64,000 nt of DNA from Candidatus Omnitrophota bacterium (GTDB lineage: Bacteria; Omnitrophota; Gorgyraeia; B26-G9). How positions within the stretch are numbered: the stretch's first letter is position 1; each line of letters opens with the position of its first letter. The DNA is taken from assembly GCA_043806135.1 (NCBI GenBank), contig JAZDHG010000098.1, forward strand, positions 1,660 to 65,659, in the 5' to 3' direction. The position numbers were made by a program, and so were the translations under genes. Shown piece by piece: positions 11,801 to 31,687 of this stretch. The notes below the pieces were generated by a model that saw only the letters and a list, made by a program, of their open reading frames with translations, made no database searches and was not told the DNA's origin.

Positions 11801-14800
11801 ATTGCCGGAAACGATGTACTTGGCGCCGGAGTGCATATGGGAGCTTTCCGCGAGGGATGGGGGAATTTCTGGGAGAATTATTTAAACTTCTTCGGTGTTA
11901 CAGTTGATGCTAAAGCTGTTATTAATACATTGAGTACTTTATTTACTAAAGACGGGAGTAAGGTATTTGAATATACTCCTGAAGTTCCGCAGAGACGTGC
12001 TTTTAGCCTTTACTTCCTTGGGTTCCCGATCATGACGTATTTTGACCTTAAAAACACAGAAGGTTTTATTAACTCTTCAACCTCGTTTGCTTTTGAAATG
12101 GAAAGCAGTAAGAATCCGTTTAATAAAAAATGGTGGAAAGATAAGGTTACCCAATACACAGAAGATGAATTTAAGCAGCTGAAACTGGTTCCGCTTGGCA
12201 AGGTAAAAGCAGAAGGTGAAAACGGACAGCCGATATGGAGAGTTTATTATATCAATGCTGATACCGGCGGGATTGTCTTCTTAGGTGATAAAGGGTACAA
12301 AAGCAAACTCCAGAGGTTAAAAGACGATGTGCAGCTTTTTGATAGATTTATGTCTTTAATCGGCGAAGGCGGCGGACGCATAGAAAAGAAAAGCTATGAC
12401 GCCGGTGCTGTAGTTGAAATAAAAAGAACAACACCATCTCAGCAGCAATCTTCACAACAGCCAATTCCGGATCTAACCGGGAAGATGCTTTCTTTTGCGC
12501 TTAATGTTAGACATCCTTTGACCGGAGTTTCTCCAAGCCATGTTTATGATACAAAGGCCACAGCCAACAATATTAACTGGGCTTTTACTTATGATATGGC
12601 TTTACAGTCTTTAGGGTTTTCCGCAGGGGGGTTGTCCAAAGAGTCGGATGCTTTACTTGATTATTTTGTTCAAAACCGTTGGTTATACCGTTATGAGGAA
12701 AAAGGTAAGTTTAACGGCGGAGTATATAATGCGATAGATATATCTCAACTTCCTACCGACACACAAAAACCCATTGCTGATTTTAGAAATGATGCAGGAA
12801 ACAGCAACTGGGTAGCAGCTGCGCTTATAAAGGGTGCAATGCGCCATGTTAGTGATCCTAATGCATGGCAGGCGGTTCTTGATGAGCAAAGAGAAGACAG
12901 GCAAAAGGCTTCGGCTAATTTCATTAAAACCGGAGATATTAATAAAATTTTTGAAGGCCGCGGGGAAACGCAGTGGCGCTTTTTAGGACTGCGTACTACC
13001 AAGCTAAAAGTTTTTCTTGAATCACTTGATGTGAAAGGAAAACAATATCTTTCTCAGGCAGAAAAAATTGCTGAGTCCCTGATAAGTTTGCAGGATAAAG
13101 ACGGCGGGATCCGTCACGGGCCGACAGAACTTAATATAAAATCAACAGAAGAAAATATAAACGCGTTTGGATTATTTATGATGCTTCATGATGTTACCGG
13201 AGAGAGCAAGTATAAAGACGCGGCTAAAAAAATCCTACAATGGCTGCCAAAAGTTTATGATACAACTCAAGGAATGTTTTTGCGCGGAATGCAAAATAAA
13301 TCAAAAGAGGATCAACCTGCTAAATGGGAAGTTGATCATATTTACGCAACAGATGCTAATGCTTTAGCAATAATCGTAATCGGACCGCAAATATTGGACA
13401 AATTAAAATCTAAAAATGAATATATTTCAGCGGATAAAATTATGGGATCGCTTGCGGACAGAAAGGTAGAACTGCTAACTGAAAGTGGAGACAAAATTTT
13501 AGGCTATGACTATACAGATAAAGTAGGCAGAGGAGACAGGGATGCTGTTATCTCACCGGAAATGACCGCTCATGTGGTTAAAGCGCATAAAGTAATGTCC
13601 AGATATTATGCTGAGCAGGGTGAAGATCTGATTGCAGATATTCATGCAAAACAGGCAGAATCCTTACTTACTAGTATTCAGCAATTAGCCGTTAACTCTT
13701 TACTTGGGATATCATTCCCTGACAGTACTCTGCCTAAAGATGCAATAGGCGGACAGATAAAAAGATATCATGACAGCAACTTTAATACTGTATCTTTAGC
13801 CAGCTTAAATTCTCTTTGGATAGTATTGGCCAAGGAAGATGTAAATCCTTTTGATGTACGCGCAAATGATCAAGTCCCTCTTATGCCTGTTTCAATAAGC
13901 GAGGAAAAAGGTTTTAATGCGGAGATAATAAAGCAGAAAACAACTATCCAGACTCTTTTGATTCGAAAACAGAATGATCCAAAATCTTGGACAGATAATG
14001 ATGAACTTGAATTGAACCAGTCCATTGAAAAGATAAATGAAATGATCCGTGAATATACAAAGGGTGCAATATTCACGGCCACAGAAGAAGATGAAACAAC
14101 ACTTAAAAGGATAATAGAACTTTTAAGTAACAAAGCCAAAGGCATACAATTAACTGATGCTGAAATAAAAGAACTGGAACAAAAGAAAGCGTCTCATCCC
14201 TATTATGAAGGGTGGATACGTCTTAGCGCGCTTTCTGAAAAAAAATTTATAATGAGTAAGTTTGAACAGATAAAACAGCTTCTAACTAAAAAAGCAAAGG
14301 AGATGCAGCTTAAGGAGTTAGGGCAAGAGTTGGATAGACAAACGGGTGTTGAAGAAAAGAAGCGTTTGCAAGAAGAGATCCAGAAACTTAAAGATAAAAT
14401 AGCTATTAGCGAGGAGTTAAAAGATCAAAAGTTTGTAGTATTAATCAATGAAACTATAGATGGCTACTTCGGTAAAGGAGAAGAAAAATCCGTAGAAAGA
14501 GAATCAACAAGAAATAGATTTTTTGGTAAACTTTCTAATACCCCAGCTGAAGATGTTGTTGTAGGTCTGATAGAAAAATTGTATGGCAAAAACAGGCTTC
14601 TCAGTGAAGATATTTTTAAGGGTGTTTATCAGTATTTCAATGCTGAAGATAACAGCGTGGTCACCGTTACCTTAATCGCTCCTGCACAGGCTATTGAAGT
14701 TGAAAGAATAAAAAGAGAAAAAGAACAGGAAACAGCAGCGAAACAGTATAAATTACTTGATGAAGGCGGAGTTATTATTACTGATAAATCAACGGGAAGA

Positions 14801-17800
14801 CTTATAGAGATAAGAGTTGGAGACAAACAAAAGGGAGTTGATGTATTAGGAGATTTTCTGGGTAGGATAAAGAATATGGTGGCTGCTGATGAAATCAATG
14901 CTGCTCAGATGCAGAAGATTATGCGCGATAGATGGGTTTTTACAATTCCAAAAACAAGTTCACAGGCTGTTGATATAAATGGGCAGAAGCAAGATCAAGA
15001 TATAACTGTTACTTTGGTTTTCCCGTATCATAGCGAATATGTGAGGGAAGAGACAAATTTAAGAACCGGAGAATCTGAACTTCGTATTTTTAATTACGGA
15101 TTACTTGATCGTGTAATTACCCGCGATAAGATTACAGTAATGAAATATAATGATCTTGATGTTGAAATTTCAAGCGATGTCTATGTGAATGAAACCGGCG
15201 AGATTATAAAAGATGCAAAGGAAGGAAGCTACTTACAGAAAACAGAAACTGTAGCTTTTGATACAAAGGATGTTGATCCTGTTTCTAAAGCGGTGAGCCC
15301 GGTGGTTATCAAAAAAGTCACAGACCCTGCTTCCCATGCGGTTAAATATGAAGTGTATAAGGATTATGAATTGCCGGTCATGACCTTTAGCGAAAAATAT
15401 GTTACGATTATTGAATTTGATGAATGGGGCAGAGAAAAAACAAGCAGAACTTATGTTAATACCGGATCGCTGGATAAACCGCGCTGGGGCAAACAACCTG
15501 TGCTTAGTTCAGAAGTTTTACCGCTTGTGGGTGAATTGGACGTAAAGGGCCGTCCGGCTACCTGGGATAAGAATTCAAAATGGTCAAGCAAGCTGGTAAT
15601 TGATCATGAAAGGAATAAACATTTTGTTGAAGTAAGGGATCAATACGGACGTCTTATCAAAAAGTATGACGGAAAAATGGAAGAAAAGCCAGGTGCCGAG
15701 CAGAACAAACTGCAGGTAATTCCTTACGGAGCGAATCAACCTTTTGAAATAGATGCCAGAGACCCGCAAGGCAGGCGCTTTGTAGTTGAGAAAGAAACAT
15801 CATTTTATCATAAATATGAGGAGCGCTTTGCTGCTCTTGGTGTTGATGCGTCTGTTATGAACCTATTAGGACTGCAGGGCACGGCTATGGTTGGGGAAAC
15901 TTATCTTTATGAGTTTAACCCGAAAACCGGACAAGGTAAAAGGGTAAGTGAAGATCCTGTCGGCAGGTCTGTGGCTCAAGTGCAGCGGCCTCAAAAAACA
16001 GGCATAGAAAAATACTTTGATGATCAAGGTAATGTTTTACTGCAGATGTCCGCACCAAGACAAAAACTTGTCTGGCAGCAGGTGATTGACAACCAGGGAA
16101 GAAAAGTTACGGATTATTATGGTTATTTGGTCGATGCTCAGGGTAGAAGAGTAACGGATATCTCAAAATATAAAGGTGATATTGATAAACTGAGATTTGT
16201 CAGGGAAAAGGTCTCTTACTCGATATATACGATAGGACAATTAAATGTTTTAAGAAAACAATACCCGAAACTCTACGATGAACTTAAAACAGAGCTCAAA
16301 AATTTGAATGTGGATATAGAATCAGAGCAATTCTTAAAAGATCTAATCTCTCAGGGGAAAATTGATGTTGCCTTAATGGGAGTAACATTTTCCTATGATG
16401 ATAAGACAAAAGCCCCTATTGAACTGGCAGCATTTTCCACAGTGCAGAAAAATGAGAAAAACAAATATATAAGTGACGGCGGAGAAGTTTTAGTTATCAG
16501 CAAAGATACACAGAAAAAGGAAGCTACTCAGCAGATAATCGATAGCGAGGGAAGAATTAAACTCAAGTACAACGGGAGATTTGACAGCAAAGCAAAACGT
16601 TTTATCAGGGAAAAGATAACCAAGTTTTTCTATACATATGAGGATCGTTTTGCCGGTGAATATTTCATTAATCCTGAGTTTGCCCGTGATATGAAAATCC
16701 TTGGCCTTTACGGCGTGGCCATGGTTGGAGAAACATTTACTTATGACGATACAACAGGCCGGCAGAGCAAAGAGCCTATTGCGTATTCTTTCTTGAGAAC
16801 ATTTAAAGACGGCAATTATGTTGACAATGAGGGTAATATCCTTGTTCAGATGACTAATGCCAACCAGCATATGAGCCGCCAGGATGTTATTAATAATCAG
16901 GGGCATACAATTATCCGGTATCTAGGAAAACTAATTGACCCCGAGACAAAGGAATTTGAAAAAGCCCAGTCATCGCGTTTTTTCTACAGCACGCAGCAGC
17001 TTGAGGAATTCAGCCAGAACGAGAAAACAAAAGGGCTTTATACTCAACTGATCAAAGAGTACGCGGCATTAGGCTGGGATATAGAAAGTCCTGCATTTAA
17101 AGCAGATCTTAATCGATATGGTAAATTCGGTGTTGCCCTTATCGGAGCAACCTATATCTATGATCAGGAGAATGATAAAGAAGTTGCTTTAATGTCTGTA
17201 TCTCGTATTAAGAAAAATGAACAAGGTGCACATATTGATGCTCAGGGTAATGTTCTTGTTGAGATGAAGAATATCATTAACAACCTGCATTGGCAGGAGT
17301 TAATTGACAATTCAGGCCGGATACAGGTTAAATATGACGGTGTTGTAATAGATGGCCAGTTTATTAGAAATCAAAAGACTTATTATTTTTATGATTACGC
17401 CAGTTATGATGCCTACCGCAAGGCACATCCTGAACTTAAGGCTGAGCTTGATGCATGGGAAGAAAAACTGACAAAACTTAAGAAAGTTAATGTTCAGGGA
17501 ATAATGGATGAACTTGGCCGCCGCAATATCGCTTTGTTTGGATTTACTTACCTTTATGATGAAGCGAATGCTGTAGCAGAAGATGTCATTAAAGAGTTGG
17601 GTTTGAATTCAGATAATAAAGAGCTTCTAAATGATATAAAAAATGAAGTATTTGCTATTGCCCAACCTGATAAGCAAAAGTCTCAGCTGGCTGTCAAAAA
17701 ATTAACTGAATTATTGGGTTCCAAATATAATTTTATAATTACAGATCAAAAGCTTGAGGGTATTGTAAAGGATAGCAGACTTAAATTAGCTGCATCTACT

Positions 17801-20800
17801 AAATATTCGCAAGTTGCTGATACAGAGGCTCTTGCTTTTTCATCTTTGAATGTAATGCAGGGAGACGGAACTGATGTTAAGGATTATTTCAGTGAAAAAG
17901 AGGGTGAAAAAGGCAATATATCGGTACAAAATGTTCGCCTAAAACAGCAGCTTACCTGGGAGGAAATAAAGGACAATTTCGGCCGTCCGGTCAAGGTATA
18001 TGACTATCAGCTTGGCAAGGACAAGAAATATCATCCCATAAAAGTCTCAAACTATTACTATGTCTATCAGGATAGGTTCAGCAAATTAGGTGTAACTGAG
18101 AGAGCAATGAATGAGATGGGCAGGCTTGGATTTGCCATGGTAGGTGAAACTTATCTGCTTAAACGAGACTCAAAAGAAGCGTTGGTATCTGTGTCTGTAA
18201 TGGTACCGCATAAAAACACAACGGGAAGTAAGTTCAACGATTATTTTAATAAAAGAGGCGAAATGATCATCGAGCTTGATAATCAGAGAACGCATCTTGT
18301 CTGGAGGGAAGTGAAGGACGCTCACGGACGCGTTCTTGTGTCCATAGACGGCAATAAAGAGAACGGTATCTTCAAGCCTCAGAAAGCAACAAGATTTTAT
18401 TATGATTTTGAAAAAAGAGTATTTGATTCTATTGCTACTAAGATGGAAAAAGACTGGGCAAAACTTGGCATAACAAAAGATAAGATGGGTGTTGAGATGC
18501 TCAATGCTATGTCGCGCCTGGGTAAATTTGATATAGCTACTTTAGGCAGTACTTATTTATATGATGGCCGTTATGAATACGGCATTAATCCTGATCTTGA
18601 TCAGCTGAATGAGAGTGAAAACAGACTGTTAGCTGTATCAATATTGGGAAAATTTGAAAAAAATGAATACGAAAAAAATGTTCCGGCTGGAGAAACAGAT
18701 TATATCAATGATGCCGGATATGTTAAAGCCATGATCTATGATGCCAAGACCAAGCTGCTTTGGGTAGGGCTTAAGGATAATAAAGGTGATATACGCGTTA
18801 AATATGCCGGTTATGAATACATGAACCCTCAGACAAAGCAGGATGAATTTAAATGGGTATGGGTTTCCAGAATAAATTATAATTGGCCTGATGAACTGGA
18901 AAACCTTGGCGCTTTAGGTATTGCTTATGATTCCAAGACATATTTTTATTATGACCCTCCTGCAGGGAAAAAGATAGAACGAGTTGATTTTCATAAGCTT
19001 GCTCCTGAAATCACGGAACTCGTGATTAGAAACGGGAAAAATGATCTGGAGGATATTTTAAAGAAGAAACTGGCTCCTTATGTGCAGGGTAAACATCACG
19101 CAAGAAAAATAATCAAAGAGATACAGGATCTTCCAAAAATCGATGATAATCAGGCAAAGAGCAATGCGATCATGGATATACTTGTCAAATATTTCTCTCA
19201 TAATATTAATTATGAATTCGGTGAAGGTGATTATCTGGTTACTGAATCCCAGATAGTACCTTTTAATTATGACCCCAATGATCCTAAAAAGAAATTAGAA
19301 TTTATAGATAAAAAAGGCAATGTTATCTTCCATATGCATCAGGTAAAAAGAAATCTTGATTATCAGGAAGTAAAAGATAATAAAGGCAGAATAATTATCC
19401 TGTTTGACGGTGATTTGGAGCCGGGGAAGAAGTTTGATTTAAGATATCAGGTATTTAACCGGAATATAATGTCTTTTTCCTATTTTGAAGATAATGATCT
19501 TGATGCAGTTGGGATTTCAAACAGAGGAGAAGCTTTCTTCTCCCGTACAAATGAAGAAACCCTGCAGGGGCTGTCTTTAACGACATTGGAAAAGGCAAAG
19601 GCTGCTTTCAGGGTATACAGAGGGACTTTAAGAGGTGACCAGCTTCTGAAATTTGATCAGGCAGTAAAGAAAGCCGGCGGTGAAGATGCTGTGGCGGCTA
19701 AGTTTCATAAAGCGGTTTTAACCATTCTCAAGTCAAATTACAGCGAGCCTAAAAATATACTTCGATTTATATCTCCTGCAGATATTGCGGAAAATATTTT
19801 TATACAGAGAAATAGTTATAATCTTGATGATTTTCTGGAAATGCATCTTGCCGGTATGTGCAGCGGATTGTTTGAAGATAAAGTCAGCAGATCATGGCTT
19901 GTAGAGATTGACAAAGAATTCTTCTGGGATACAAGCAGTGAACAAAACAAAAAGAAATGGCTTACAAGAAACGGAAATGATAAATCTGCGGCAAAAGAAG
20001 CATTGTTTAAATATATGAAATGGGATAGGCTTACTAACGATGTAAAACAACAATGGCTTGCAAGATACGAAAATAATGAAGCTCGGGCAAAGGAAGCTTT
20101 TTATAAAGATAATCTTACTTCTATAGACAGGTACATCAATGCTGAAGGAAGCATACAATACGAAGGAGAGGAGCACTGGAGATCAGACATTACCAAAGAC
20201 GGCCGGCCTATGAGCACAAAAGCAGATGTGCATTACCGCAAGATAAAAGATAAGCTCGGGCGGGTTATGAATCATATCTGGGGGTACTGGGATAAGCAAA
20301 GCGATTTTCGGGGCATAATGCAGCTTAGGGCCAGATTCGACACCTTATACGGTAAATTCGGTATTGCTGATGTTACAACTGCTTTTTTAACGGAACAGGG
20401 ATGGACATTGTTTAACTACTCAAAAGCGGTCAATCTTGAATACGAGACAGGTGCTGTAGACTATGCGGTTGTTAAAACCCTTGTTCCTGAGGACAAAAAA
20501 GAGGCGTTGAAGATGGATGAATCAAGAGCTGCTCCGCTTGAGAAGAAGTTTGAAGATTCATGGGTATTATTCCGTTTACCGAAGCCGCGTGCGGAATTAA
20601 TACGTGAATTAATAAACATAAGGCCAAGTACGGCGCAAGGAGATATAGCAGATAAAATCATTGATAAGATGATCAAAGATAAATATTACAAAGAAGGCTT
20701 TACAGACGAAGAAGATGTTGTTGCTTTTTTTGAAAAAGAAGGTATTAAGCTGGATTTTAAAACAGATAGTGAGTTTATTTCTAGGCTTTACAGAGGATTG

Positions 20801-23800
20801 CAGCACCGCACCGCAACAATCGCTGTCGCGCCGAAAGGCGATGCCGCTGAGCGTCCGAAAGTAATTCAGATGTGGATGGAAATAAAGAACAAAAAGGGAG
20901 AGCTTGAAATAATATTCAACGGCTATGTTGACCGCATTTCTGAAGCAGGTAAAAAAGGACAGATAAAGCAGATAGAGCTTGAAAAAACATATGTTACTTT
21001 TCTTGAATATCTGGAAAAGAAAAATATGGGTTTATCGCAAAGAAGTTCGACTTTTGATTTTAACCCAAATTTCATGAAAAACGGCCAGTCTACGGAAAAG
21101 ATGCTTAAGCAGTTTAAAGCAAAAATCTCCCTGCGTGCCTCTACAGACCAGCTGATATTACTGCCTGATGGGACGATGGTCTATGACATGAAAGATACGA
21201 GCAAAGATAAGCTGGCGCTGGTAAGAACTCTTTATTATCCGGACGGAAGAATTAAATTCCAGATATCCAAGAAAATGATGGGTGAAGACCCGCGCTGGAG
21301 AATTGATGTTTTTGATGAGCGCCAGAACCTGGTAGCAACACTGCGCGATGATACATCGCGTACGCCTGAAGAGGTGATTAGCAACCTCGGTAATATTGAA
21401 AACTGGCGGCCTTATGAGATACATCACTCTGTACATACTGAATATGCGCATACATTTGTGCTTACAGATATGGTAGGAGAGACCGGCATTTCCACATTTG
21501 CAGGACAGAAAGCGCTGCTGTTAAGCAACGGCAAGCCTTTGATTAAAGGTACAAATATCCATCAAAATATCGGACTATCGCAAAAAGAGCATTTTTCAGA
21601 TAAAGCGGTGCCTTACGAAGAAACAAAATATATTAATCGCCAGTTATGGTGGCTTTATTTTGATAAATTCCAAAATAATTTTATTAATCAGGTGGGTAAT
21701 ATTGGAAAACACCAGTTGGAGCGTTTTAATATCAAGCTGACCAGTGAGCGGTTTAGAGATGAACAATTGTTTGCGGATTTGCTGCAGGAGGCAAACGCGC
21801 AAAAAGCTAAGGATGATATTCAGCAGGGGGCCGCGGTTAAAGTAAGCTATTTGAAAGACGGACAGATGCAGGAAGTGGAGATCGCGCCGCGCGGATTAGG
21901 GTTTAAAATTAAAAAGATTTTTGACTATAAAATTCAGGTGCCTTTTACCGGATGGTATGTATTCTGGTGGACAATGCCGCTGGCTTTAGGAATTTATCTC
22001 TTAGGCGCAAACCGCATTACAAGCTGGTGGTGGGGAAGAAAAGCGCGCAAAGCAAAGGAAAAAGGCAGGAATAATATCAACCGCATGTGCGAAGATGAAA
22101 TAAAGGATCTCCTGCTGCCTGATAAGAAAAATGCGAAAGAGCTGGAAAAAACTGATGCCGTGAATATAGCAAGTCAAATTGTAGATCGCAGAAGGCGAGT
22201 AAAGAGCTTTATGGATGAAGCTGAAGTAGAAGAGTTCTTAGGTAAATTAGGTGTAACTGCTGAAACTATATCCAGGATCATGGATAATATTGTAGTTGCA
22301 GATATTATTCCCGACTTCTATAATGACGCGAATTTAAGATTGCAGCAAGTTAACAGGATGAATGAACAGGAACTGGCCAAATTACTGATGCAGGCAGGAG
22401 TTGAGAAAGAAACAGCGCTGAATGCATCCGAAGCCTTTGTCAAAGAACTGGCAGATAAAAAACCATTTATCAAAGCACTTGGTCAAAACGGATTTGAAAC
22501 TCTGGATCAGGTTAAGGCATTTTTAAGAGACCATGGCATTGCGTATAAGATTTTGAATACTATCTTCGGCTCAGGCGATCTTTTACGCGCACCGCCGCGT
22601 TCAGCGCAGTCAAGGCAGCAGGTAATCGATGAACTGCAGGAAATCCTTGCTGCTGCGGATATTAGCTTGGATGAATTAAACAAAGTATTAAGTGAAAAAC
22701 TCCCTGATCCAAAAGATTCTTTTGACTCTACCCTTACCCCGCCGATCGCGTTAATCGTGAAAAACCTTCTGGATGAAGAAGGCCTTGGTTTATTAACAAG
22801 AGAGCAATTTAAAGAAGTAATTAACGAGCTTATCGAAAAACTGCGTAATAACAAAAGAATCCCTTCTGCTATTGACTACTATGTCATAGAAGAATGCATA
22901 GACAAGGCCTTTAGTCCGATAGTAAAGCAGTATTTAATGGATTTAGACCCTAATAATGAACTTGAAGGTGAATACGAGCGGTTGATAAAAATGCGCTTAA
23001 GTGAAGTTCTTTCTGTAATGATAAAAAATCCTTATGGCATAAGAAAAAAAGAAAGTGGCACATACAAAGGAGAATATGAAATAGAAGAACCTGAAATGAT
23101 AGGATTGGATAAAGATAATGCTCTTAAAAAAGAAGCATTTGATGGAGAACCTGCTCCGTTTACATTGCGCTTTCAGGCATGGCAAAGTGTTTTCTTGCTG
23201 CCATATTATCCTTATAAGTTAGGATCAGCCTTGGCATCGCGTTCTACTTTAACCCGCTATTTGTTCCGTAAATCATTTGCTTTATATATGGATAAAAGAG
23301 CTAATGAGATATTACCTTTAATGAGATTACATGTTCAATTATGGAGAGCCATTATAGTTGATCAGATACAGGGCAAGCTGGAGCCTTATCGTAGAAATAA
23401 TATAGGGATAAATGAAAGGCTTATCGATGACCCTACGATATTATTTGGACAAGAAGATATGGACGATTTGTTCCGTTATTATGAAGACCCTATAAATGAA
23501 CTTAATATTAATTTAAGTCAGGAAGTCGGTAATATCAAAAATCAGCCTGATGAGAAAACTGCTTCTGATTATATACAGAAGCTTGTTGATAGCAAGCTTA
23601 AACCTGCTGTAGACAAAGCGTTAAACGAACACGAATCATTTATTGGTACTTACAGATTAGGCTGGCTGGCTTTCTGGCATGAACTCATGACTCCTTTTAG
23701 AGCGCTGTATAGCAAATGGACCGGTAAAGAACAGCGTTTTTGGACTGAAGGTACGGAAAAAGGGCCGGCAGGGTTAAAAAGCAAAAAAGGCAAACGTTTC

Positions 23801-26800
23801 TGGCAACAGACTATGATAGTTACGGCATTTTTCAATTTTATTATGGGATATATTGTGATCGAATATGCCATCGCCTGGGGTATTGCCTTAGGATTTCCTT
23901 TAGGGCTTGTGTTTATATTCTCAGTGCTGCCGTTCCTGATTTTCATGCCGCTGACATATTTTTCCATTAAGGAAATGGGTGTGACATTTGTATCCTGGTT
24001 GACGGAAAGAAGGCAAAAAATAGCTCCTATAAACAACTGGGTTTGGGGCTGGAGCCGGTCACGACTTAAAAACCATCTTGATAAGATATTCATAGATACA
24101 AATGGTGAGCTTAAAATAGAAGATTATTCCGGTAAAACCAGAGTTCAGGTATGGAATGAAGGAGTTGAACATTTATTTGAAATCGCAAAGATTTCTGAGA
24201 CTGAACGCAATGACTATTTGTTTGGGCTTGAGGATATGATTAATGCTGCTTCAGTGAGAAGCAAATTGAATAGAATGAAGCTTGCTAAGCCAAAGAATAA
24301 AGAAGCTAGGCAGCGTTTACGCAGATGGATTGCCGGATATTTGCGTTATAAACCCGGCATAGAAGGTTTTGAACGTTTGCCTACATTCAGCATTTTTATT
24401 CTTAACGGCGGTGGAGATGAAGCGTATTATTTCTTTGCTGATGATTTGCTTAAGCGAAGAGTTGAAAAAGGTGTAATAGAAGATACTACGCATTTGCAGT
24501 ATCTCAAAAACCGGTATGATGATGAGTTTGATAATTTGATGCATTTAATAGATACAAAATGGAACGTATTAAAGAGTTTATTAGATAAAAATGATGCAAA
24601 AGTTATCAGCGAATTTGTTGAGAGTATTCGGGATTTGAGTTTTGGCCAGGAAATTGATGTTACGCAAATTAGAGCAAAACTTACAGACCAAGAGTCCATT
24701 AATGAATTTGACAGCCTGGTTGAGATGATTGAGGATTGGGCAAATTACAGATTGTCTACAACCTGGCGCTGGACACAGTCTCATAAGTATATGAGACAAA
24801 GATATTATGAATATATTGAGAATTATTATCAGAATGAATTATTTAAAATTCTGAAAATGGAAAGAGATGGGAAAGAGTTAACAGAAGAAGAAGCAAAAAC
24901 GATTGCCGGAATGACGCAGGATCAGAAAGTGGAATATTATGAGAAAATTGCTGCTGAATATACCCGCCTGGTTGACTTAAAATATCAGTTTATCAACTCT
25001 GAGAGTGCTACTAAAGCGCAGAATAACCCTAATTTCCTGAGAATTAATTTTGATACAATGACAGAAGAAGATCTTAAGAGCTTGGATATCGGCAATGCAA
25101 AGCAGAAAAGGATCCTGATTGATTATAAAAAGTATAAAGCGGAATATATAAAATATTATATGCCAAGTAAACCTGATGGAAAGCAGATCAATCCGAATAT
25201 TATAGGTAAGCAAGGTGATCAAATCCGTTTTTCAAAATACGGCCAGGCAAGTTTTTCATCTCCTTATGTGCGCGGTGAGATTGTCTGGGGTATGGATACG
25301 CATCTTGAAATAGATTACGAAGAGACCCCCAATATGCTCCGCACACTTACAGAGTTTAATAGAAATCCAAAACTGGGTGTTGTTTTAAGCACTATTACAA
25401 TTTTTGTTGAAAAGTTAAATGCTATCGGTCGGGCTATGGCACTTGCTGAGCAGGCATGGCAGAGCTCAGTAATGAGAGCTAAAGAAACAGTGGATGTTCT
25501 TGGCTATTATGGAAAGGGAATTTACCGCAATGATTTCATGAATAAATATGAAGGGTTGCAGGATGATTATGTATCTGAAGATATTGTTACTGCTTTTATG
25601 TTTATGCTTTTTGGTTTGATGACTAAGCATGTCAGCTATCTGAAACTGCAATGGAGAATGCCGCCGCCGCTTAAAAGTATTATTGTTCCGCTTGCCAAGT
25701 GGGCAGCTGGAAGCGTGGAATTTCTCTTAAGACGCCAGTTCAAGCGTGTGCTTGCAAGCAGAATAATTCCATGGAATGAAAAATTTGGGACGATGGTTTC
25801 AGCGGCGCATTACTGGAAAAAACCGTTTGTAATCCTAGGGGTTATATCTTTTACAGTAGTTGGTCTTATCATGACCGGGCTTTTAATGCCGGTTAACCCG
25901 TTCTTGTCATTATCGTTTCCTCTTTTCTGGATTGTTATGGGTGCATTCTTTGCCGAGGCAATAAACTTGCCGTCCTTTTGGTCTCATTCAGAAAGGGAAG
26001 GAAGTTACTTGAAGGGTGTTGGGGCAACATTATGGGGCATTGCAACGAACTTTGTATTTTTTAATATGCTTATACCGTTATATGTTATTAAAGGCATAAA
26101 CGAAGGCGTCTGGGCGCGTCCGGTATTTTTGCCCACAGATAAAGAGCTCAAACTTGAAAAGCCGTTAAAAGCTACTTATGAATATTTCCGAAAAGAATTC
26201 GGCAGCTGGCCGGCCAAAATAGCAGCGGTATTACTGCCGATTACAATGCTTGTGGTTCCGGTAACTGTGATGCTTTTAGGCACATGGTTCCTGTATTTCT
26301 TTGCTTTGGGTGCCTGGGTATTCAGTCCGTATATATTGAGCTTTGCTATCAGAAGCAAGATACTTACAGTTTTCAATAAATACATAAAGGAAAAATTTGC
26401 TAAAAAGGCTATAGATCAAAAGAGAAAGAGCTTTGCACAGGTTTGGACGGAAAACTTCAGACAGGATATGTTTGATCAGAATATTTTCAGAGGAGTGTTC
26501 TCAGGTATAGGTAATCTTTATATCAGACCTGCTTGGAGAGGAATACATGAACGCTTATTTAAAAAAGGCAGTTGGTTTGATAGACACTTTTATGTTGTCC
26601 CTTCGACTATTCTTAGCTTAGTAGCTTCCGGGCATATTATTGCTATGCTGTGTGCACCGGCAATCTCAGTTTTAACAACTCCGTTTATTATATTGTTTCT
26701 CCTGTATTTCCCGTTGCGTTTACTTTTTACTCCAAAATATGATGAAACAACCTTTACACTTAAAGAGCAGTGGAAAGAAGCTGGTATAAATTTTAAACCT

Positions 26801-29800
26801 GCTGATTGGTCCAAAGCACAGGATGCAGGAGCAAGGCCGGCTCGTTATATAATTGAAGCTTTAGCTATTCTTTTATATTTTCCATTTAGCGGTTGGATGG
26901 CAGCAGCTTTTGGTATTACAGCAGTTGTAGAGATTGCGATAGCTAAATTCATTCCGTCGCCGATGTACGGGCCGGATTTAAGATCAAGATTATTCCGCTA
27001 TATTGGATGGGGATCTTTGCTGTTATCCGGGTCATTCTTACCTTTAACCGGAGCCGTATCTATAGGATTTTACGCTCTGGTGATGTTGGCTATTACTGCA
27101 GAAATTTTCTGGGCAATATTTAATAAAAAACCATTATTTTCTTTGATCAGAAGCAAGGAACTAAAAAGTCCAGGGACAGAAGCTACTTTTCAAAAAGGTG
27201 AAGATTTCGATTCAAGAGCAAGTCAAACACAACGCGATACTATAGCTGGCTACACGAGAGAGAAAATAAGATACTATCGTGGTCTTAAATGGGGTGATAG
27301 CCTGGTTGATATTGATAATATCAGTACAGAAGTGCTGGATAAAATATTTGCTTCTGTTGAAATAAGAGCCCTATATGATGCAAATAAAGAAAAGTTAAGA
27401 AATATACGCAGGAACAATACTGAATACGAGAGCCTTAAAGAAACAATATGGGCTGGTATTTCAGCGCAGGAGCAGGAACTTTGGCTGACTGATAACAACA
27501 ACGATGAAAATCAGGCAAAGCAAGCGCTATATGAATATATGCAGGCATATGACCAGCATATATTGAAAAGTATGAAATATGAGGCAGAGGAGATAGTTCT
27601 GCCTGCTGTTTTAAATAGCCTGACTTCAGACATGAGGGCAATCAGAAGAATTAAGGCAGGGGTAACAAGCGGAGAGCTTGAGCAGCAGGTTTTAGATAGC
27701 AAAGCAGCTGACTTAAGAGAAAAATTTTGGAACGCTTTACCAGTTGAAATACAGCAATATCTGCTGTTTACAAATAATTTTGACAGGGAAGCTGTTTTAG
27801 ATCAGCTAATGAAAAAGCTTGAAGAAGTTACTAACGATAAAATTAAAGCTGATTTTAATAGAATCAAGGACTATATTGTTCCTCAAATAGTAGGACGCTA
27901 CAAACGACAGTTGATTGATGTTATAACTGGCAGGGTAGAGAAAAACAGCATTTTAAATTTTTATTATGTGGATAGTCTAATGAATATTCTTGATGAGATA
28001 ACAAGTTATGACAAGCAAGCATCAATTGATTTGTTGTTTGGATTGCTTTTGAGAGGGTTGCATAATTCATTAATTCCGGATATTAAACCCAAAGTCATAA
28101 TTGAAAAATTAATAGATAAGGGGTTAGATGAAGGACAGCTTGCTAAGATCAATTGGCTTACCGAGGTGTTGAGTAATGAAGAGATTGTCAATTTTGTAAG
28201 ATTGAACAGAACTAGTATTAGAATGGCTAAGTATGATAATGATTTAATACGAGAAATTGAATTGACCAGAGAATTGCTGGATTTGGTTGAAGGTATTAAT
28301 CCGGATGTTTTAAATAAGCTTAAGAGTATTTTTGAATCAGATGAGGAAGCACAAGCTTATCTATTCACAAGCTTGGATATAATAATTATCAAAGGAGCAA
28401 TTAAAAACATAAATGAATTCAATAATTTAAAAGAGAATGAAACAAGCAAACAATTATTCAATGAATTTGTATCTTCAAACTGGCAATATTTCTTAAGTGC
28501 TCATTTTTCAAATGACAATAATGCTGAGAAGTATTTAAAAGCTGCTTCCTGGGATATGTTGCCTTTAGATATAAAGGAAGCATATCTAGATATTGCTAAA
28601 GGTGATTTAGAATTAGCAAAAAAACTAGCTGTTGAAGGAAAAGGATGCAGTTACGCTACAGTATTAGGAACAGCTAAAGATAAAATTAAAAAAATATCGG
28701 AGGGATTGAAATCAATTAATAATGAAGAAAGAGATGATTTGCTGCGCTGGTTATCATCTGTTGGCGGAATTCAGGAAGTACAGACTGTTGAATCAGCATG
28801 GCTTCTCCAAAGGATAATAATAATGCTCGATGCAAATAAAGATAATTTTAAGGGTTTATTTAATGCAGATGATTTAAACATATTTATAATTGAGTTAATT
28901 ATTGCTAGCTCTGGAATTACTTCAAGAAGGTCCGAAATTGAGCAGGAATTGAGATTAGTTGTTAACACTTATTTAGCAATTCTTAATGAGGGGCTTGATA
29001 TAGATGCGTATATATTAAGCAAAGATGAACAGGGTCTTAAGAATAAATTGGTGAATACAGCGATTTTCTTATTTGGTAAAGTACTTGATGATTATCTTAA
29101 TTTCGAGAAATTGGCCTCTAATTATGGGCAGATAACTAATGAAATTAAAGAAGCATATCTTAATCAGCTTTATGCGGATTACGGGTTGACCGGTGTTGAG
29201 CCTATGCCGGTATGGATGTCTGAAATTGCGCGTGCACTTAAAAACCATATTTTAGACAGGCCATATCCTACATTTGATGGTTTTGTAAAGGAAATCTTTG
29301 ATGCTTTAAAAGCGAAATTACCCAATGATTCAGGTAAGCCTGGCGCACCGGTCACTTCTGCAGATTCGCCTGATAATCCAAATGCTCCTGCCCCTGGTAC
29401 AGGTACAGAAGTTGTTTATCAGGAAAGTACAGCGGATACTGGTACAACAGGAGCAGAATCTAAAGTTGAAGAGATTATTGACTTAACACCTGAGATGATG
29501 GTTAGACCTGAAGAGGATAAAATTATTGACCTTGTAGATGTTGTTGAAGAACGTGAATTACCGGTTCCGGATAAGGGAGACATAACTGAAGAGGAAGCTC
29601 TTGAAGGGGATGTTGATTTAGTTGCGTATAGGAAATCATTAGAAGAACCTGACCAGGCTGTTATGGATGCTTTAGATGAAATCCTTATTAATGAGCCGAT
29701 GGCTGAAGAACCTGATCTGGATGCTGCTGTAAATATAATGGAAACATATCTTATGGAGATAGAACGTCAATTAGGCGAAGAAACGCGTAATGGATTTAGA

Positions 29801-30283
29801 GACTTTGTGGAGGAGTTTGGCTTTGGTGATTTAATAAAAACGCAAACAGAGCAGATTGTGAGATTATTGCTTATACTCTATATGGTTAGTAAAGAAGTAA
29901 CGATTAATATATTTGATTTACCCGATGATCCGGCTGGTTTTATAAATGCCATGGAACATCTCAATATTAATTATAAAGCGATTGAAGATGAGATTATTAA
30001 CACTGATTTGAATGTTAAGGCAAAACTTGAAAGCGGGCAATCAGTAGGACTCTTTAATGGTTTATTAGAGATAAGGGTTAATGAAAGAGGTCAAGATAAG
30101 GTTTTGGTATTAACAGTTTCAGAGTCTGCTGACAAAGAAAAGATCATTGACTTAACACCGGAGATGATCATTAAGCCTGAAGCTCAAAAGGCTACTGAAG
30201 ACGCTTTAGATAAGGCAATACCCGGAATTGAGAAAAAATTAACGCTTGAAGATACCAGAGAGCTTATTGGTAATGCAATTTAG
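2894..30283 (+). CDS. giant multidomain protein (9129 aa): signal-like leader; embedded SecA-like ATPase motor; two M23 peptidase-like and two LysM-like modules; ~9 tandem repeats; polytopic membrane domain
   Basis: Uninterrupted 27.4-kb ORF. A good RBS (AGGTGA) sits 5 nt before the ATG at 2903, which is the likely true start; the GTG at 2894 is in frame. The SecA hallmarks span nt ~3830-5950. They include [110 protein letters not shown]...[76 protein letters not shown] and an HSD-like [25 protein letters not shown]. M23 motifs: HQGFD...CLHFE (7046-7345) and NPGVD...VLHFE (7966-8265). LysM-like segments lie at 7577-7745 and 9370-9566. TM helices lie at 21950-22020, 23800-24010 and 25806-27130. 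Confidence 0.85.
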   Translation: [9129 protein letters not shown]

Positions 30284-31048: not shown

Positions 31049-31687
31049 ATGCCTATAAGAGCGGACGTGGTTAGCGGAAGAATGTATCATGTTTTTACGA
31101 AAAGCATCGCCGGATTTATTGTTTTTAATAATGATGCTGAGTATGACAGGATGATCTATGCATTAAACTATTATAAGATCATGGGAATTGGCTACTGCTA
31201 TTCAGACTATATCAAACATGTTTATAAAACTGATTTATTGAAAGATAAAGATCAAACAGTAGATATTATCGCATATTGTTTAATGCCCACACATTTACAT
31301 TTTATTCTCAAACAAAATGTCGATAAAGGCATATCACTCTTTATGAGAAAGGTTCTCAATAGTTATTCTAAATATTTTAATTGCAAAATTAAAAGAAAAG
31401 GCCCTTTGTGGGAAAGTAGATTTAAAAATGTTAAGATAGAGAATGATGAACAGTTAATGCATTTAACCCGATATGTGCACTTAAATCCTGTTACCGCAAA
31501 CTTGGTAAAAAAACCAAATTTTTGGAAATATTCTTCATATAATGAATATCTGAACAAGACAAAAGAAAAAATATGCAACTATGGCGAGGTTTTGGATATT
31601 GATCCAGGGGAATATAAAGAATTTGTTGGGTCCCAAATAGATCATCAAAAAGAATTAGCGCATATCAAGCATTTAATCCTTAAATAA
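31049..31687 (+). CDS. REP-associated tyrosine transposase (RAYT) / IS200-like Y1 (HUH) transposase
   Basis: HUH motif in CLMPTHLHFIL. Conserved GPLWESRF (compare G-x-LWQ-RF of Y1 transposases). Catalytic Tyr context RYVHLNPV followed by ...WKYSSY. RBS AAAGGAG upstream. Flanked by REP-like hairpins. Confidence 0.8.
   Translation: MPIRADVVSGRMYHVFTKSIAGFIVFNNDAEYDRMIYALNYYKIMGIGYCYSDYIKHVYKTDLLKDKDQTVDIIAYCLMPTHLHFILKQNVDKGISLFMRKVLNSYSKYFNCKIKRKGPLWESRFKNVKIENDEQLMHLTRYVHLNPVTANLVKKPNFWKYSSYNEYLNKTKEKICNYGEVLDIDPGEYKEFVGSQIDHQKELAHIKHLILK

What the first reader, a model, noticed from the sequence alone, without database searches (positions are those of the whole stretch)
21950..27130. Large polytopic membrane domain (~14+ predicted TM helices) in the C-terminal third of giant protein 1
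Hydrophobic helices cluster at 21950-22020 (WYVFWWTMPLALGIYLLGA, followed by a WWWGRKARKAKEKGR positive patch), at 23800-24010 (three helices) and at 25806-27130 (about ten helices, for example PFVILGVISFTVVGLIMTGLLMP and AKIAAVLLPITMLVVPVTVMLLGTWFLYFFALGAWVF). They are separated by long soluble inserts.

A protein combining a translocase motor, wall hydrolases and its own channel-sized membrane domain could form a trans-envelope conduit. That function is speculative, but the topology itself is striking.
Basis: partly seen in the sequence, partly recalled or inferred. Interest (0 to 1): 0.6.

Follow-up and report, generated by a model that had tools for sequence, protein, structure and literature searches.

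The report
Glucan-synthase module inside bacterial giant protein
The cluster of membrane helices near the end of this 9,129-residue Omnitrophota protein is a divergent relative of the fungal and plant beta-1,3-glucan synthases (Fks1, callose synthase), so its "channel" most likely exports a sugar polymer, not protein, and it gives the first functional reading of the membrane parts of these giant proteins.

Summary
One ORF (2894-30283, 9,129 aa) has hydrophobic helices at aa 6354-6372, 6975-7017 and 7646-8076, far above chance. I count 11-13 spanning helices plus two interface helices.

They are not an anonymous membrane domain. Residues ~6950-8100 form a module built like Fks1: a TM pair, a 628-aa cytoplasmic GT-A domain, then a TM bundle.
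- Single-sequence searches found nothing.
- A profile of 35 homologues hits yeast FKS1/GSC2 (family GT48) at E=7e-62 over Fks1 724-1552. Bacterial cellulose synthase BcsA scores only 7e-23.
- An AlphaFold2 model (pTM 0.74) has Fks1/Fks2 as its top 11 Foldseek hits.
- K7448, D7468, E7562-D7563, R7588 and the gating-loop T-x-K match Fks1 catalytic positions.
- The module is the part best conserved against the closest relative.

Parity and the positive-inside rule put the SecA-like ATPase and the GT domain inside the cell, and the M23/LysM wall-hydrolase region outside.

The likely function is processive synthesis and export of a beta-glucan through the inner membrane. Activity and linkage are inferred, not shown.

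About 100 relatives exist. All seven genome loci are Omnitrophota-type MAGs, and the named homologues are called "hypothetical" or named after other domains. The Omnitrophota giant-protein papers I read do not mention a glucan synthase. I rate it a new variant of a known kind.

The parts
2894..30283 (+). Giant ORF of 9,129 aa that contains everything below.
   Evidence: No stop codon where about 662 are expected.
3797..5593 (+). SecA-like ATPase region (aa ~302-900: SecA_DEAD, preprotein-binding and P-loop domains). Context only. Placed in the cytoplasm by parity.
   Evidence: Pfam. NCBIfam SecA models reach 1e-130 but stay below their cut-offs. Topology argument.
6506..6562 (+). TM helix aa 1205-1223, the proposed exit into the roughly 5,100-aa extracytoplasmic region (two M23 domains at aa ~1360-1490 and 1690-1791, LysM at ~2160).
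   Evidence: Orientation is inferred from parity with the GT domain.
21953..22009 (+). Single Trp-rich TM helix aa 6354-6372, the proposed re-entry to the cytoplasm that ends the ectodomain. Not part of the widely conserved synthase module.
   Evidence: Shared only with the closest relatives.
22025..22069 (+). Basic patch WWWGRKARKAKEKGR (aa 6378-6392) on the cytoplasmic side of that helix.
   Evidence: Fits the positive-inside rule.
22010..23815 (+). Cytoplasmic insert 1 (aa 6373-6974), helical. Its last ~200 residues (from aa ~6780) are conserved with more distant module carriers. Function unknown.
   Evidence: Pfam gives only sub-threshold hits.
23816..23944 (+). TM hairpin aa 6975-7017, immediately upstream of the GT domain. 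It sits where Fks1 has TM5-TM6.
   Evidence: (pLDDT 85-95). Fks1 domain order from PMC12715860.
23945..25828 (+). Cytoplasmic GT-A catalytic domain (aa 7018-7645), GT48-like. Motifs: EARQRLRRW (nt 24302-24328), PTFSIFILNGGGDE (24380-24421), LQYLKNRYDDEF (24494-24529), EDWANYRLSTTWRWT (24731-24775), SKYGQ with K7448 (25232-25246), VRGE (25268-25279), GMDTH with D7468 (25289-25303), YYGKG (25505-25519), VSEDI with E7562-D7563 (25571-25585), QWRMPP with R7588 (25649-25666), LAKWAAGSVE (25691-25720).
   Evidence: Profile-versus-PDB alignments to FKS1 724-1290. Residue map, coordinates. AF2 pLDDT is mostly above 85.
25829..26341 (+). Conserved membrane core aa 7646-7816: two TM helices, two interface helices, the gating-loop motif VFLPTDKE (nt 26123-26146), and two more TM helices ending in SPYILS (equivalent to Fks1 PFIFNP). 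It aligns with Fks1 ~1300-1492, the region that holds the proposed glucan channel.
   Evidence: Conserved in about 100 homologues.
26588..26953 (+). Four further predicted TM helices (aa 7899-8020), shared only with the closest relatives L001, L002 and L005.
   Evidence: AF2 confidence is low here (pLDDT below 50).
26969..27139 (+). Window-specific 57-aa insertion (aa 8026-8082) that holds the last two predicted helices (8028-8046, weak; 8052-8076).
   Evidence: Absent from L001, L002 and L005 in alignment A4. No internal duplication detected.

Best explanation
Residues ~6950-8100 of the giant protein (nt 23741-27193) are a membrane-integrated processive glycosyltransferase module of the Fks1/callose-synthase (GT48) type. 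The hydrophobic clusters are its transmembrane helices. The 628-residue 'soluble insert' between them is its cytoplasmic GT-A catalytic domain.

Proposed mechanism:
1. The GT-A domain binds a nucleotide sugar in the cytoplasm, most probably UDP-glucose. It uses the conserved Lys (K7448), the Asp at the DxD/DAN position (D7468), the Glu-Asp of the finger helix (E7562-D7563), an Arg (R7588) and the K-W-A-A-G..E motif.
2. It adds one sugar at a time to the growing chain.
3. The chain is pushed through a channel formed by the flanking TM helices (aa 6975-7017 and 7646-7816), with a gating loop (aa ~7744-7751) covering the active site.
4. The polymer emerges on the periplasmic face of the inner membrane, next to the protein's own ~5,100-residue ectodomain, which carries the M23 peptidases and LysM.

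The lone helix at aa 6354-6372 is not part of the channel. It is the anchor that returns the chain to the cytoplasm after the ectodomain.

Shown: homology, fold, architecture, conservation of catalytic positions, topology consistency.
Inferred: catalytic activity (my estimate ~0.6), a glucan product (~0.55), beta-1,3 linkage (~0.4).
Speculative: the biological role, such as building a surface coat or matrix, or a tether used in attachment to prey.
For: 1. Homology
- The core profile A1 (19 sequences) hits yeast GSC2/FKS1 at E=1.4e-30 over Fks1 1099-1511. BcsA scores 1e-17.
- The full-module profile A2 (35 sequences) hits FKS1 at E=7e-62 over Fks1 724-1552, that is the whole GT domain plus the following TM helices. 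BcsA scores 7e-23 over about 230 residues only.
- That alignment includes N-terminal-half motifs not covered by the BcsA match.

2. A continuous family links the window to eukaryotic GT48
- 7 of 19 members of A1 match Pfam PF02364 Glucan_synthase, best E 7e-49.
- Member P0080 hits a plant callose synthase at 3.5e-28 with 27% identity.
- The yeast GSC2 fragment hits 29 family members directly.

3. Fold
- AF2 model: pTM 0.74; 450 residues have pLDDT of 90 or more.
- Foldseek against PDB: ranks 1-11 are all Fks1/Fks2 (E down to 2e-14, about 1,300 aligned columns). Then come BcsA, HAS, Chs, CesA and Cgs.

4. Catalytic positions (Fks1 residues from PMC10499315)
- K7448=K1082, RGE=RGE1094-96, D7468=D1102, E7562/D7563=E1221/D1222, R7588=R1248.
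- SED, WR, AG..E and the gating-loop T.K are invariant in 8 Omnitrophota copies down to 25% identity.

5. Constraint
- Against the closest relative L001, identity is 77-93% across the module (peak at aa 7550-7699) and 21-81% elsewhere.

6. Topology
- All short K/R-free loops fall on one side.
- Parity puts the GT domain and the SecA-like ATPase inside and the M23/LysM region outside.

7. Circumstantial
- Two secreted GH158-like proteins lie downstream next to an MFS sugar transporter. GH158 acts on beta-1,3-glucans (PMC7157763, PMC13195107).
- Other module carriers fuse hexokinase, ROK kinase or cytidylate-kinase-like domains.
Against: - The window copy on its own hits neither PF02364 nor any PDB chain. 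It sits at the divergent end of the family.
- Several residues listed for the Fks1 active site are not conserved here: K1246->Q, K1172->A, E1155->I, D1080->F/S.
- The C-terminal helices (aa 7820-8100) are modelled with low confidence, and the last two are a private insertion.
- No experiment or substrate prediction supports the sugar or the linkage.
- The GH158-like genes are 21 kb away and could serve to digest foreign glucans.
- Topology rests on hydropathy, parity and homology, because no dedicated topology predictor was available.
Confidence: 0.8

Rival explanations
1. The module is a real synthase of this fold, but its product is not beta-1,3-glucan. It could be a beta-1,4 or mixed-linkage glucan, a chitin-like or hyaluronan-like polymer, or a heteropolymer. 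The mechanism is the same and only the chemistry differs.
For: - The profile also matches BcsA cellulose synthase (1e-17 and 7e-23).
- 9 of 19 members match the GT2 model PF13632.
- The window keeps a Trp in LAKWAAG. From memory, this recalls the GT2 QxxRW motif, where Fks1 has KIGAG.
- The DxD position reads D-T-H. That is neither the Fks1 DAN nor a canonical DxD.
Against: - Similarity to GT48 is far stronger and longer than to any GT2 (7e-62 against 7e-23).
- The nearest family members pass the GT48 Pfam model.
- GH158-like enzymes, from a family active on beta-1,3-glucan, are in the locus.
Confidence: 0.25
2. The module is a catalytically dead relic. It serves only as a multi-span membrane anchor or scaffold, or as a glycan-binding or glycan-passing device without synthesis.
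For: - Four Fks1 active-site positions are substituted in the window's subfamily (K1246Q, K1172A, E1155I, D1080F/S).
- The window copy is too divergent to hit PF02364.
- Giant Omnitrophota proteins evolve fast (West-Roberts et al., 10.1101/2023.11.21.568195).
Against: - The core catalytic residues (Lys, Asp, Glu-Asp, Arg) and the gating-loop T.K are invariant in copies down to 25% identity.
- The catalytic stretch is the most conserved part of the whole protein against L001, at 93%.
- A pure anchor would not need a 628-residue GT-A domain.
Confidence: 0.15
3. One reading: the helices form a protein-conducting or trans-envelope conduit. It would be driven by the N-terminal SecA-like motor and would export the protein's own ectodomain or effectors.
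For: - A SecA-like ATPase, wall hydrolases and a polytopic domain sit in one polypeptide.
- West-Roberts et al. speculate that SecA-like domains help secrete the giant proteins.
Against: - Every sequence and fold match of the membrane domain is to glycan synthases. None is to SecY, YidC, a type-secretion channel or a pore protein.
- The helices flank a GT-A domain with intact catalytic motifs.
- The SecA-like region gave no phmmer match in the other 103 module carriers.
- Related channels span only the inner membrane.
Confidence: 0.03

Closest known systems
Fungal 1,3-beta-glucan synthase Fks1/Fks2 (GSC2), CAZy family GT48 (PDB 7XE4, 8JZN, 9WZS and others)
   Same: - Best sequence-profile match (E=7e-62 over Fks1 724-1552) and best fold match (Foldseek ranks 1-11).
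- Same order of parts: TM hairpin, a ~600-residue cytoplasmic GT-A domain, then a multi-helix bundle.
- Shared motifs through the whole GT domain.
- Conserved K1082, D1102, E1221/D1222 and R1248 equivalents, and the gating-loop position.
   Different: - About 13% identity in the structural alignments.
- The window copy fails the Pfam GT48 model on its own.
- No Fks1 N-terminal accessory domain was detected by Pfam, and only two TM helices directly precede the GT domain where Fks1 has TM1-6.
- DTH replaces DAN. A Trp is kept in the K-W-A-A-G motif.
- K1246, K1172 and E1155 are not conserved.
- The host is bacterial, and the module sits inside a 9,129-aa protein instead of being a stand-alone ~1,900-aa enzyme. 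Rho1 regulation cannot apply.
Plant callose synthases (CalS/GSL, GT48)
   Same: - Family member P0080 matches Hibiscus callose synthase 5 at E=3.5e-28 with 27% identity.
- From memory, the motifs EARRRI.., ..TPYY.E.., ..YL..I.PDEW.. and ..WAS.RGQTL.RT.. have counterparts in the window (EARQRLRRW, PTFSIFILNGGGDE, LQYLKNRYDDEF, EDWANYRLSTTWRWT).
   Different: Same differences as for Fks1. The motif comparison with plant enzymes rests on my memory of their sequences, not on a tool alignment.
Bacterial cellulose synthase BcsA (GT2; PDB 4HG6, 4P00)
   Same: - Same superfold and the same logic of coupled synthesis and translocation.
- TED-like SED motif, QxxRW-like K-W motif and a gating loop.
   Different: - Much weaker similarity than to GT48, limited to about 230 residues of the GT core.
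- No PilZ domain in this protein and no BcsB partner detected. A separate PilZ protein lies 28 kb downstream.
Omnitrophota giant proteins with SecA_DEAD domains and many TM helices (West-Roberts et al. 2023, bioRxiv 10.1101/2023.11.21.568195; Seymour et al. 2023, PMC10066038; 2026 preprint 10.64898/2026.06.07.730766)
   Same: - Same phylum: 6 of 7 related genome loci are labelled Omnitrophota and one is labelled Planctomycetia.
- Same general architecture: giant ORF, divergent SecA_DEAD, numerous TM helices, wall-degrading domains.
   Different: - Those studies report the TM helices only as anchors or topology marks.
- West-Roberts et al. left TM regions out of structure prediction.
- None of the three texts mentions a glucan synthase. 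'Glycosyltransferase' occurs only in the 2026 preprint, and only for LPS/capsule cargo genes.
- Here the TM clusters are assigned to a specific enzyme module.
Cyclic beta-1,2-glucan synthase Cgs (about 2,800 aa; PDB 8RF9)
   Different: Different GT family (GT84, from memory), much weaker similarity, a cyclic product, and no extracellular hydrolase region.

Membership tests
GT48 (1,3-beta-glucan synthase; Fks1/callose synthase) | The sequence alone matches the family model (Pfam PF02364 Glucan_synthase, gathering score 37.2 bits) or a GT48 structure. | tested here: not met
   No PF02364 hit for the window sequence even at E<=10. phmmer against PDB finds nothing relevant.
GT48 (1,3-beta-glucan synthase; Fks1/callose synthase) | Homology to GT48 at profile level, through a continuous family of intermediates. 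| tested here: met
   - Profile hits to FKS1/GSC2 at E=1.4e-30 (A1) and 7e-62 (A2), ahead of every GT2.
- 7 of 19 members match PF02364, best E 7e-49.
- P0080 relatives carry precomputed PF02364, and P0080 hits a callose synthase at 3.5e-28.
- The GSC2 fragment hits 29 members directly.
GT48 (1,3-beta-glucan synthase; Fks1/callose synthase) | Architecture: a large cytoplasmic GT-A domain inserted between TM helices, followed by a multi-helix bundle, and an overall fold like Fks1. | tested here: met
   AF2 model. Foldseek ranks 1-11 are Fks1/Fks2 with about 1,300 aligned columns. Hydropathy and topology.
GT48 (1,3-beta-glucan synthase; Fks1/callose synthase) | Putative active-site residues of Fks1 (K1082, D1102 of DAN, E1173, E1221/D1222, K1246, R1248, K1172, E1155, D1080; PMC10499315). 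| tested here: inconclusive
   Conserved: K7448, D7468, the E1173 equivalent, E7562/D7563, R7588. Not conserved: K1246->Q, K1172->A, E1155->I, D1080->F/S. The core set is invariant across the family.
GT48 (1,3-beta-glucan synthase; Fks1/callose synthase) | Makes linear beta-1,3-glucan from UDP-glucose. | not testable with these tools
   Context only: GH158-like genes in the locus and hexokinase or ROK fusions in other members.
GT48 (1,3-beta-glucan synthase; Fks1/callose synthase) | N-terminal accessory domain (FKS1_dom1) and regulation by Rho1 GTPase. | tested here: not met
   No Pfam domain of this kind in aa 4201-9129. Rho-type regulation is eukaryotic, from established knowledge. The fold of the upstream cytoplasmic insert aa 6373-6974 was not modelled.
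GT2 processive membrane synthases (BcsA/CesA/HAS/Chs) | Signature D, DxD, TED and QxxRW motifs in a GT-A domain fused to a TM channel with a gating loop. | tested here: inconclusive
- SED stands for TED and K-W for R-W. D-T-H stands for DxD. The gating-loop T.K is present.
- Sequence similarity is much weaker than to GT48.
- The window copy hits no GT2 Pfam model.
Omnitrophota SecA_DEAD giant membrane proteins | Very long ORF, divergent SecA_DEAD domain without the C-terminal SecA domains, multiple TM helices, Omnitrophota origin. | tested here: met
   - 9,129 aa.
- SecA_DEAD, PP_bind and P-loop domains only. The full-length SecA models score far below their cut-offs.
- TM helices.
- Relatives occur only in Omnitrophota-type MAGs.
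Protein-conducting channels (SecY/YidC/secretion-system pores) | Sequence or fold similarity of the helix bundle to a known protein channel. | tested here: not met

The most novel reading that the evidence does not exclude
Omnitrophota giant proteins may harbour a large, deeply diverged prokaryotic branch of the GT48 family, which to my knowledge is otherwise treated as eukaryotic. It would show features intermediate between GT2 cellulose-synthase-like enzymes and Fks1/callose synthase, such as a retained Trp in the QxxRW-like motif together with GT48-type motifs in the N-terminal half. This branch could be the bacterial sister or source of the eukaryotic beta-1,3-glucan synthases. On this reading the giant proteins are single-polypeptide 'polysaccharide factories'. 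They would join sugar activation (hexokinase, ROK or nucleotide-kinase fusions in other members), polymer synthesis and export, and extracellular wall hydrolysis, perhaps to build the coat or attachment matrix of these ultra-small predators.
Probability: 0.3. Interest if true: 0.8.

Novelty: new variant of a known kind. Interest (0 to 1): 0.62.

Why it matters
1. It turns an anonymous feature of Omnitrophota giant proteins into a specific, testable enzyme. The literature notes 'numerous transmembrane helices' but leaves them uninterpreted. West-Roberts et al. explicitly excluded them from structure prediction. Seymour et al. call the ORFs poorly annotated. The result also fixes the inside/outside layout of the rest of the protein, which those studies found ambiguous.

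2. To my knowledge GT48 is regarded as a eukaryotic family. It is the target of the echinocandin antifungals and the maker of plant callose. A diverse bacterial clade of about 100 cluster representatives, linked by intermediates to Fks1 and callose synthase, bears on where that family came from. It also offers small, possibly more tractable, relatives for mechanistic work.

3. It suggests that these predators or epibionts make a polysaccharide as well as degrade one. That changes how their giant proteins, and the 'coat' of Velamenicoccus-type cells, might be understood.

4. Method point: the relationship was invisible to single-sequence Pfam and PDB searches. It appeared only with a family profile and a structure model. 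The public names seen for the ten homologues I looked up are 'hypothetical', 'NUDIX', 'histidine phosphatase' or 'GT2'.

Tried and rejected
- Single-sequence Pfam, NCBIfam and PDB searches of the region and its sub-segments gave nothing useful.
- The word-indexed homologue search returned only 1-3 relatives for the window and for profile A1. It appears swamped by hydrophobic words. The full HMMER scan of representatives was needed.
- The search for related loci with the broad alignment A1 failed because no stretch was conserved enough. It worked with the closer alignment A3. That search is pattern-limited, so seven loci is a lower bound.
- The afdb50 fold library was unavailable. I could not see how UniProt or AFDB annotates bacterial relatives.
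- I tested whether the private 57-aa hairpin insertion is a duplication of the preceding hairpin. No protein or DNA repeat was found.
- I looked for a second copy of the module in all six frames of the window. There is none.
- I tested whether the SecA-like, M23 or other N-terminal parts co-occur with the module in the other 103 proteins. They do not at phmmer level, but many of those proteins are contig fragments.
- Pfam and PDB searches of the PilZ protein's C-terminal part and its L004 homologue were uninformative.
- Literature searches for bacterial GT48, PF02364 in bacteria, or glucan synthase in Omnitrophota found nothing relevant. The library lacks most subscription journals and CAZy itself, so absence of a report is not proof.

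Full report
**What is there**

The window carries one uninterrupted ORF, 2894-30283 on the + strand, of 9,129 codons. From its base composition about 662 stop codons would be expected, so it is a real gene. All large ORFs of the window are on the + strand and GC skew is positive throughout.

Pfam and NCBIfam annotate only the first quarter:
- a SecA-like ATPase at aa ~302-900 (SecA_DEAD 1.7e-69, preprotein-binding and P-loop domains; full-length SecA models score far below their cut-offs);
- two M23 peptidase domains at aa ~1360-1490 and 1690-1791;
- a LysM fragment at ~2160;
- a sub-threshold GH76-like stretch.

Nothing is annotated after aa ~3500.

**Checking the observation**

- aa 6354-6372, followed by WWWGRKARKAKEKGR;
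- aa 6975-7017;
- a dense series from aa 7646 to 8076.

Two more lie at aa 17-35 and 1205-1223. The number of strongly hydrophobic windows is 122, against a mean of 10 and a maximum of 34 in shuffles.
- the middle cluster is two long helices, not three;
- part of the last cluster (aa 7705-7739) is better read as interface helices;
- one candidate (aa 8028-8046) is only weakly hydrophobic.

I count 11-13 spanning helices in the last third of the protein.

**What it is**

By eye, the 'soluble insert' between clusters 2 and 3 carried motifs that reminded me of Fks1 and callose synthase. I treated that as a lead only (note 1).

Single-sequence searches against Pfam and PDB found nothing, and the word-indexed homologue search found one relative. 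A full HMMER scan of 1.84 billion cluster representatives with aa 6950-8100 gave 103 homologues at E<=1e-3. Most lie inside proteins of 1,000-7,500 aa, and they share a core at aa ~7439-7820.

Profile searches against PDB gave:

| Profile | Best hit | E-value | Region of Fks1 | BcsA |
|---|---|---|---|---|
| A1, core, 19 sequences | yeast GSC2/FKS1 | 1.4e-30 | 1099-1511 | 1e-17 |
| A2, whole module, 35 sequences | yeast FKS1 | 7e-62 | 724-1552 | 7e-23, ~230 residues |

The A2 match covers the entire GT domain and the helices after it. It includes N-terminal-half motifs that the BcsA match does not cover:
- EARxRI.. with EARQRLRRW;
- FTVLTPHYAE with PTFSIFILNGGGDE;
- LEYLK..HPVEW with LQYLKNRYDDEF;
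- IWASLRSQTLYRT with EDWANYRLSTTWRWT.

The family forms a continuum reaching eukaryotic GT48:
- 7 of 19 members of A1 match Pfam PF02364 Glucan_synthase, best E 7e-49, while the window copy does not.
- Member P0080 and its relatives carry precomputed PF02364, and P0080 hits a plant callose synthase at 3.5e-28 with 27% identity.
- A 413-residue yeast GSC2 fragment hits 29 members directly. It hits the window's 50%-identical relative P0001 only weakly and does not hit the window.

**Structure**

AlphaFold2 with alignment A2 gave pLDDT 73.6 and pTM 0.74. Confidence is above 85 over aa ~6960-7370 and ~7450-7820 and is low after aa 7820.

Foldseek against PDB puts Fks1/Fks2 cryo-EM structures at ranks 1-11 (E down to 2e-14, about 1,300 aligned columns, TM-score 0.49 on the query). 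BcsA, hyaluronan synthase, chitin synthase, CesA and cyclic glucan synthase follow.

**Anatomy and residue map**

An alignment through the A1 profile, read against the Fks1 active-site residues named in PMC10499315, gives these equivalences:

| Window | Fks1 |
|---|---|
| K7448 (SKYGQ) | K1082 |
| RGE 7460-62 | RGE 1094-96 |
| D7468 (GMDTH) | D1102 of the DAN motif |
| AEQ Glu | E1173 |
| E7562-D7563 (VSEDI) | E1221-D1222, the TED-equivalent finger helix |
| R7588 (QWRMPP) | R1248 |
| LAKWAAGSVE | TKIGAGMGE |
| VFLPTDKE (aa 7744-7751) | YISTGRG, at the gating-loop position |
| SPYILS | PFIFNP |

Not conserved are K1246 (Q), K1172 (A), E1155 (I) and D1080 (F/S).

Across eight Omnitrophota copies down to 25% identity, SED, WR, AG..E and the gating-loop T.K are invariant. 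Across 19 broader members, K, D, YG and ED are invariant.

Against the closest relative (L001), identity is 77-93% across the module, with its maximum (93%) at aa 7550-7699. Elsewhere it is 21-81%. This is what one expects of an active enzyme.

**Topology**

The GT-A domain must face the nucleotide-sugar pool, so I took it as cytoplasmic and counted helices outward.
- Every predicted outside loop is 2-5 residues long without K or R.
- All K/R-rich loops, including the WWWGRKARKAKEKGR patch, fall inside.
- aa 6373-6974 is then cytoplasmic.
- aa 1224-6353 (M23, LysM) is extracytoplasmic.
- aa 36-1204 (the SecA-like ATPase) is cytoplasmic.

All three placements are biochemically sensible. This resolves the kind of implausible localisations that West-Roberts et al. 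reported for such proteins.

The lone helix at aa 6354-6372 is therefore the return anchor of the ectodomain. It is not part of the channel, and only the closest relatives share it.

The last two helices lie in a 57-residue insertion private to the window. As a hairpin it would not change parity. If only one of the two spans the membrane, the location of the C-terminal 1,050 residues flips.

**Mechanism**

Fks1, BcsA, CesA and HAS couple glycosyl transfer to translocation through a channel built by the helices flanking the GT domain (PMC10499315; PMC12715860). The window's module has all the corresponding parts.

Most likely it polymerises a sugar from a cytoplasmic nucleotide donor and extrudes the chain across the inner membrane, beside its own wall-hydrolase ectodomain.

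Status of each step:
- Shown: homology, fold, architecture, motif conservation.
- Inferred: activity, donor, linkage.

Circumstantial hints for a glucose polymer, possibly beta-1,3:
- GT48 is the nearest family.
- Two exported GH158-like proteins (best PDB hits E=4e-16 and 1e-10; one with a signal peptide, one with a lipobox) lie next to an MFS_2 sugar transporter 21 kb downstream on the same strand. GH158 acts on beta(1,3)-glucans (PMC7157763, PMC13195107).
- Other module carriers fuse hexokinase, ROK kinase or cytidylate-kinase-like domains.

These hints are weak, because the glucanases could equally digest foreign laminarin-type glucans.

**Rivals**

- Another product with the same mechanism: about 0.25.
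- A dead scaffold: about 0.15. This is disfavoured by invariant catalytic residues and by peak conservation at the catalytic stretch.
No similarity to any protein channel was found, the SecA-like part gave no match in the other carriers, and the related channels span one membrane.

**Distribution and novelty**

Seven related loci were found in one-genome-per-species GTDB contigs. Six are labelled Candidatus Omnitrophota and one, at 87% identity, is labelled Planctomycetia. In each, the module lies in a giant reading frame as far as the contig allows:
- L004, L006 and L007 are open over their whole 13-21 kb.
- L001's frame continues off the locus end.

Public names of homologues are 'hypothetical protein', 'histidine phosphatase family', 'NUDIX domain-containing' and 'glycosyltransferase family 2'.

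Three studies of Omnitrophota giant proteins describe the TM helices only as anchors or topology marks (10.1101/2023.11.21.568195; PMC10066038; 10.64898/2026.06.07.730766). They never mention a glucan synthase. The first explicitly excluded TM regions from structure prediction. Searches for bacterial GT48 found nothing.

That GT48 is considered essentially eukaryotic is my own knowledge of CAZy, not a tool result. Precomputed Pfam tags show PF02364 on some Omnitrophota proteins, so the raw signal exists in databases but appears undescribed.

I rate this a new variant of a known kind: a known enzyme class and mechanism, in an unexpected lineage and embedded in a giant multi-domain protein.

**Verdict**

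- Observation: confirmed.
- Interpretation: partly supported. It is a polymer channel, but for glycan, with its own catalytic domain.
- Interest: 0.62. The identification is solid and would surprise specialists in both Omnitrophota biology and glucan synthases. Activity, product and evolutionary direction remain untested.

Noticed in passing
window 51308-53206 and 54574-55857 (+), with 49773-51212: Two paralogous exported TIM-barrel glycosidases have GH158 as their best solved relatives (E=4e-16 and 1e-10). GH158 is a family active on beta-1,3-glucan. One has a signal peptide and the other a lipobox (LAAGC). They sit just downstream of an MFS_2 sugar transporter. Pfam also gives GH2_C and weak GH72 (beta-1,3-glucanosyltransferase) hits. 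This may be a beta-1,3-glucan link to the synthase module, or a pathway for using foreign glucan.
   Followed up: partly
window 26969-27139 (aa 8026-8082 of the giant ORF): An in-frame 57-residue insertion encodes the last two predicted TM helices. It is absent from the 78%-identical copy in L001 and from L002 and L005. No sign that it arose by duplication of the neighbouring hairpin.
   Followed up: yes
window 58067-60013 (+); L004 2189-3253: A 648-aa protein has an N-terminal PilZ (c-di-GMP-binding) domain. Its C-terminal part (aa 294-641) has a 33%-identical homologue fused in the same reading frame as the GT48-like module in the L004 giant ORF. This fusion hints at a functional link. The fused part has no recognisable domain.
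   Followed up: partly
window 31049-31687 (+); L001 16666-17301: An IS200-like Y1 transposase ORF lies directly downstream of the giant gene. It is kept at the same position in L001 at 66% protein identity. That is unusual for a mobile element and suggests a domesticated or REP-associated (RAYT-type) gene.
   Followed up: no
window 32409-39938 (+): A 2,509-aa ORF combines NodU/CmcH-type carbamoyltransferase domains with a radical SAM domain. No homologue was found within the ~21-kb stretches held for L001 or L005, where a homologue of the next window ORF (42006-47975; HEAT/DUF218/cupin) follows the giant gene. It could be a polysaccharide-modifying enzyme inserted into the locus.
   Followed up: partly
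window 2942-2998 (aa 17-35): An N-terminal hydrophobic segment looks like a signal peptide (..IAFA/AGG). A cleaved or N-in signal would put the SecA-like ATPase outside the cell. Parity counted from the GT domain instead requires N-out/C-in, or a segment that does not span the membrane. The true start codon is also uncertain (GTG at 2894, Met at codon 4).
   Followed up: partly
proteins P0045, P0061, P0108, P0110, P0002, P0021 (homologues): Other carriers of the GT48-like module fuse it to ROK sugar kinase plus PHP, cytidylate-kinase-like, hexokinase (PF00349) and radical SAM plus B12-binding domains. Two more are named after NUDIX and histidine phosphatase domains. This may explain the glycolysis-type domains that West-Roberts et al. 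found puzzlingly 'extracellular' in such giants.
   Followed up: partly
window 22100-22900 (aa ~6400-6660); P0002: The cytoplasmic insert before the module contains short helical stretches. One of them (aa ~6573-6652) matches several separate places in homologue P0002 (near aa 653-733, 849-892 and 4614-4722), so it behaves like a repeated small domain of unknown function.
   Followed up: no
window 62403-63107 (+) and 60013-62403 (+): A pilin-like protein with an N-terminal methylation motif follows a 796-aa unannotated ORF at the end of the window. This fits the type II secretion/type IV pilus genes reported near Omnitrophota giant genes.
   Followed up: no
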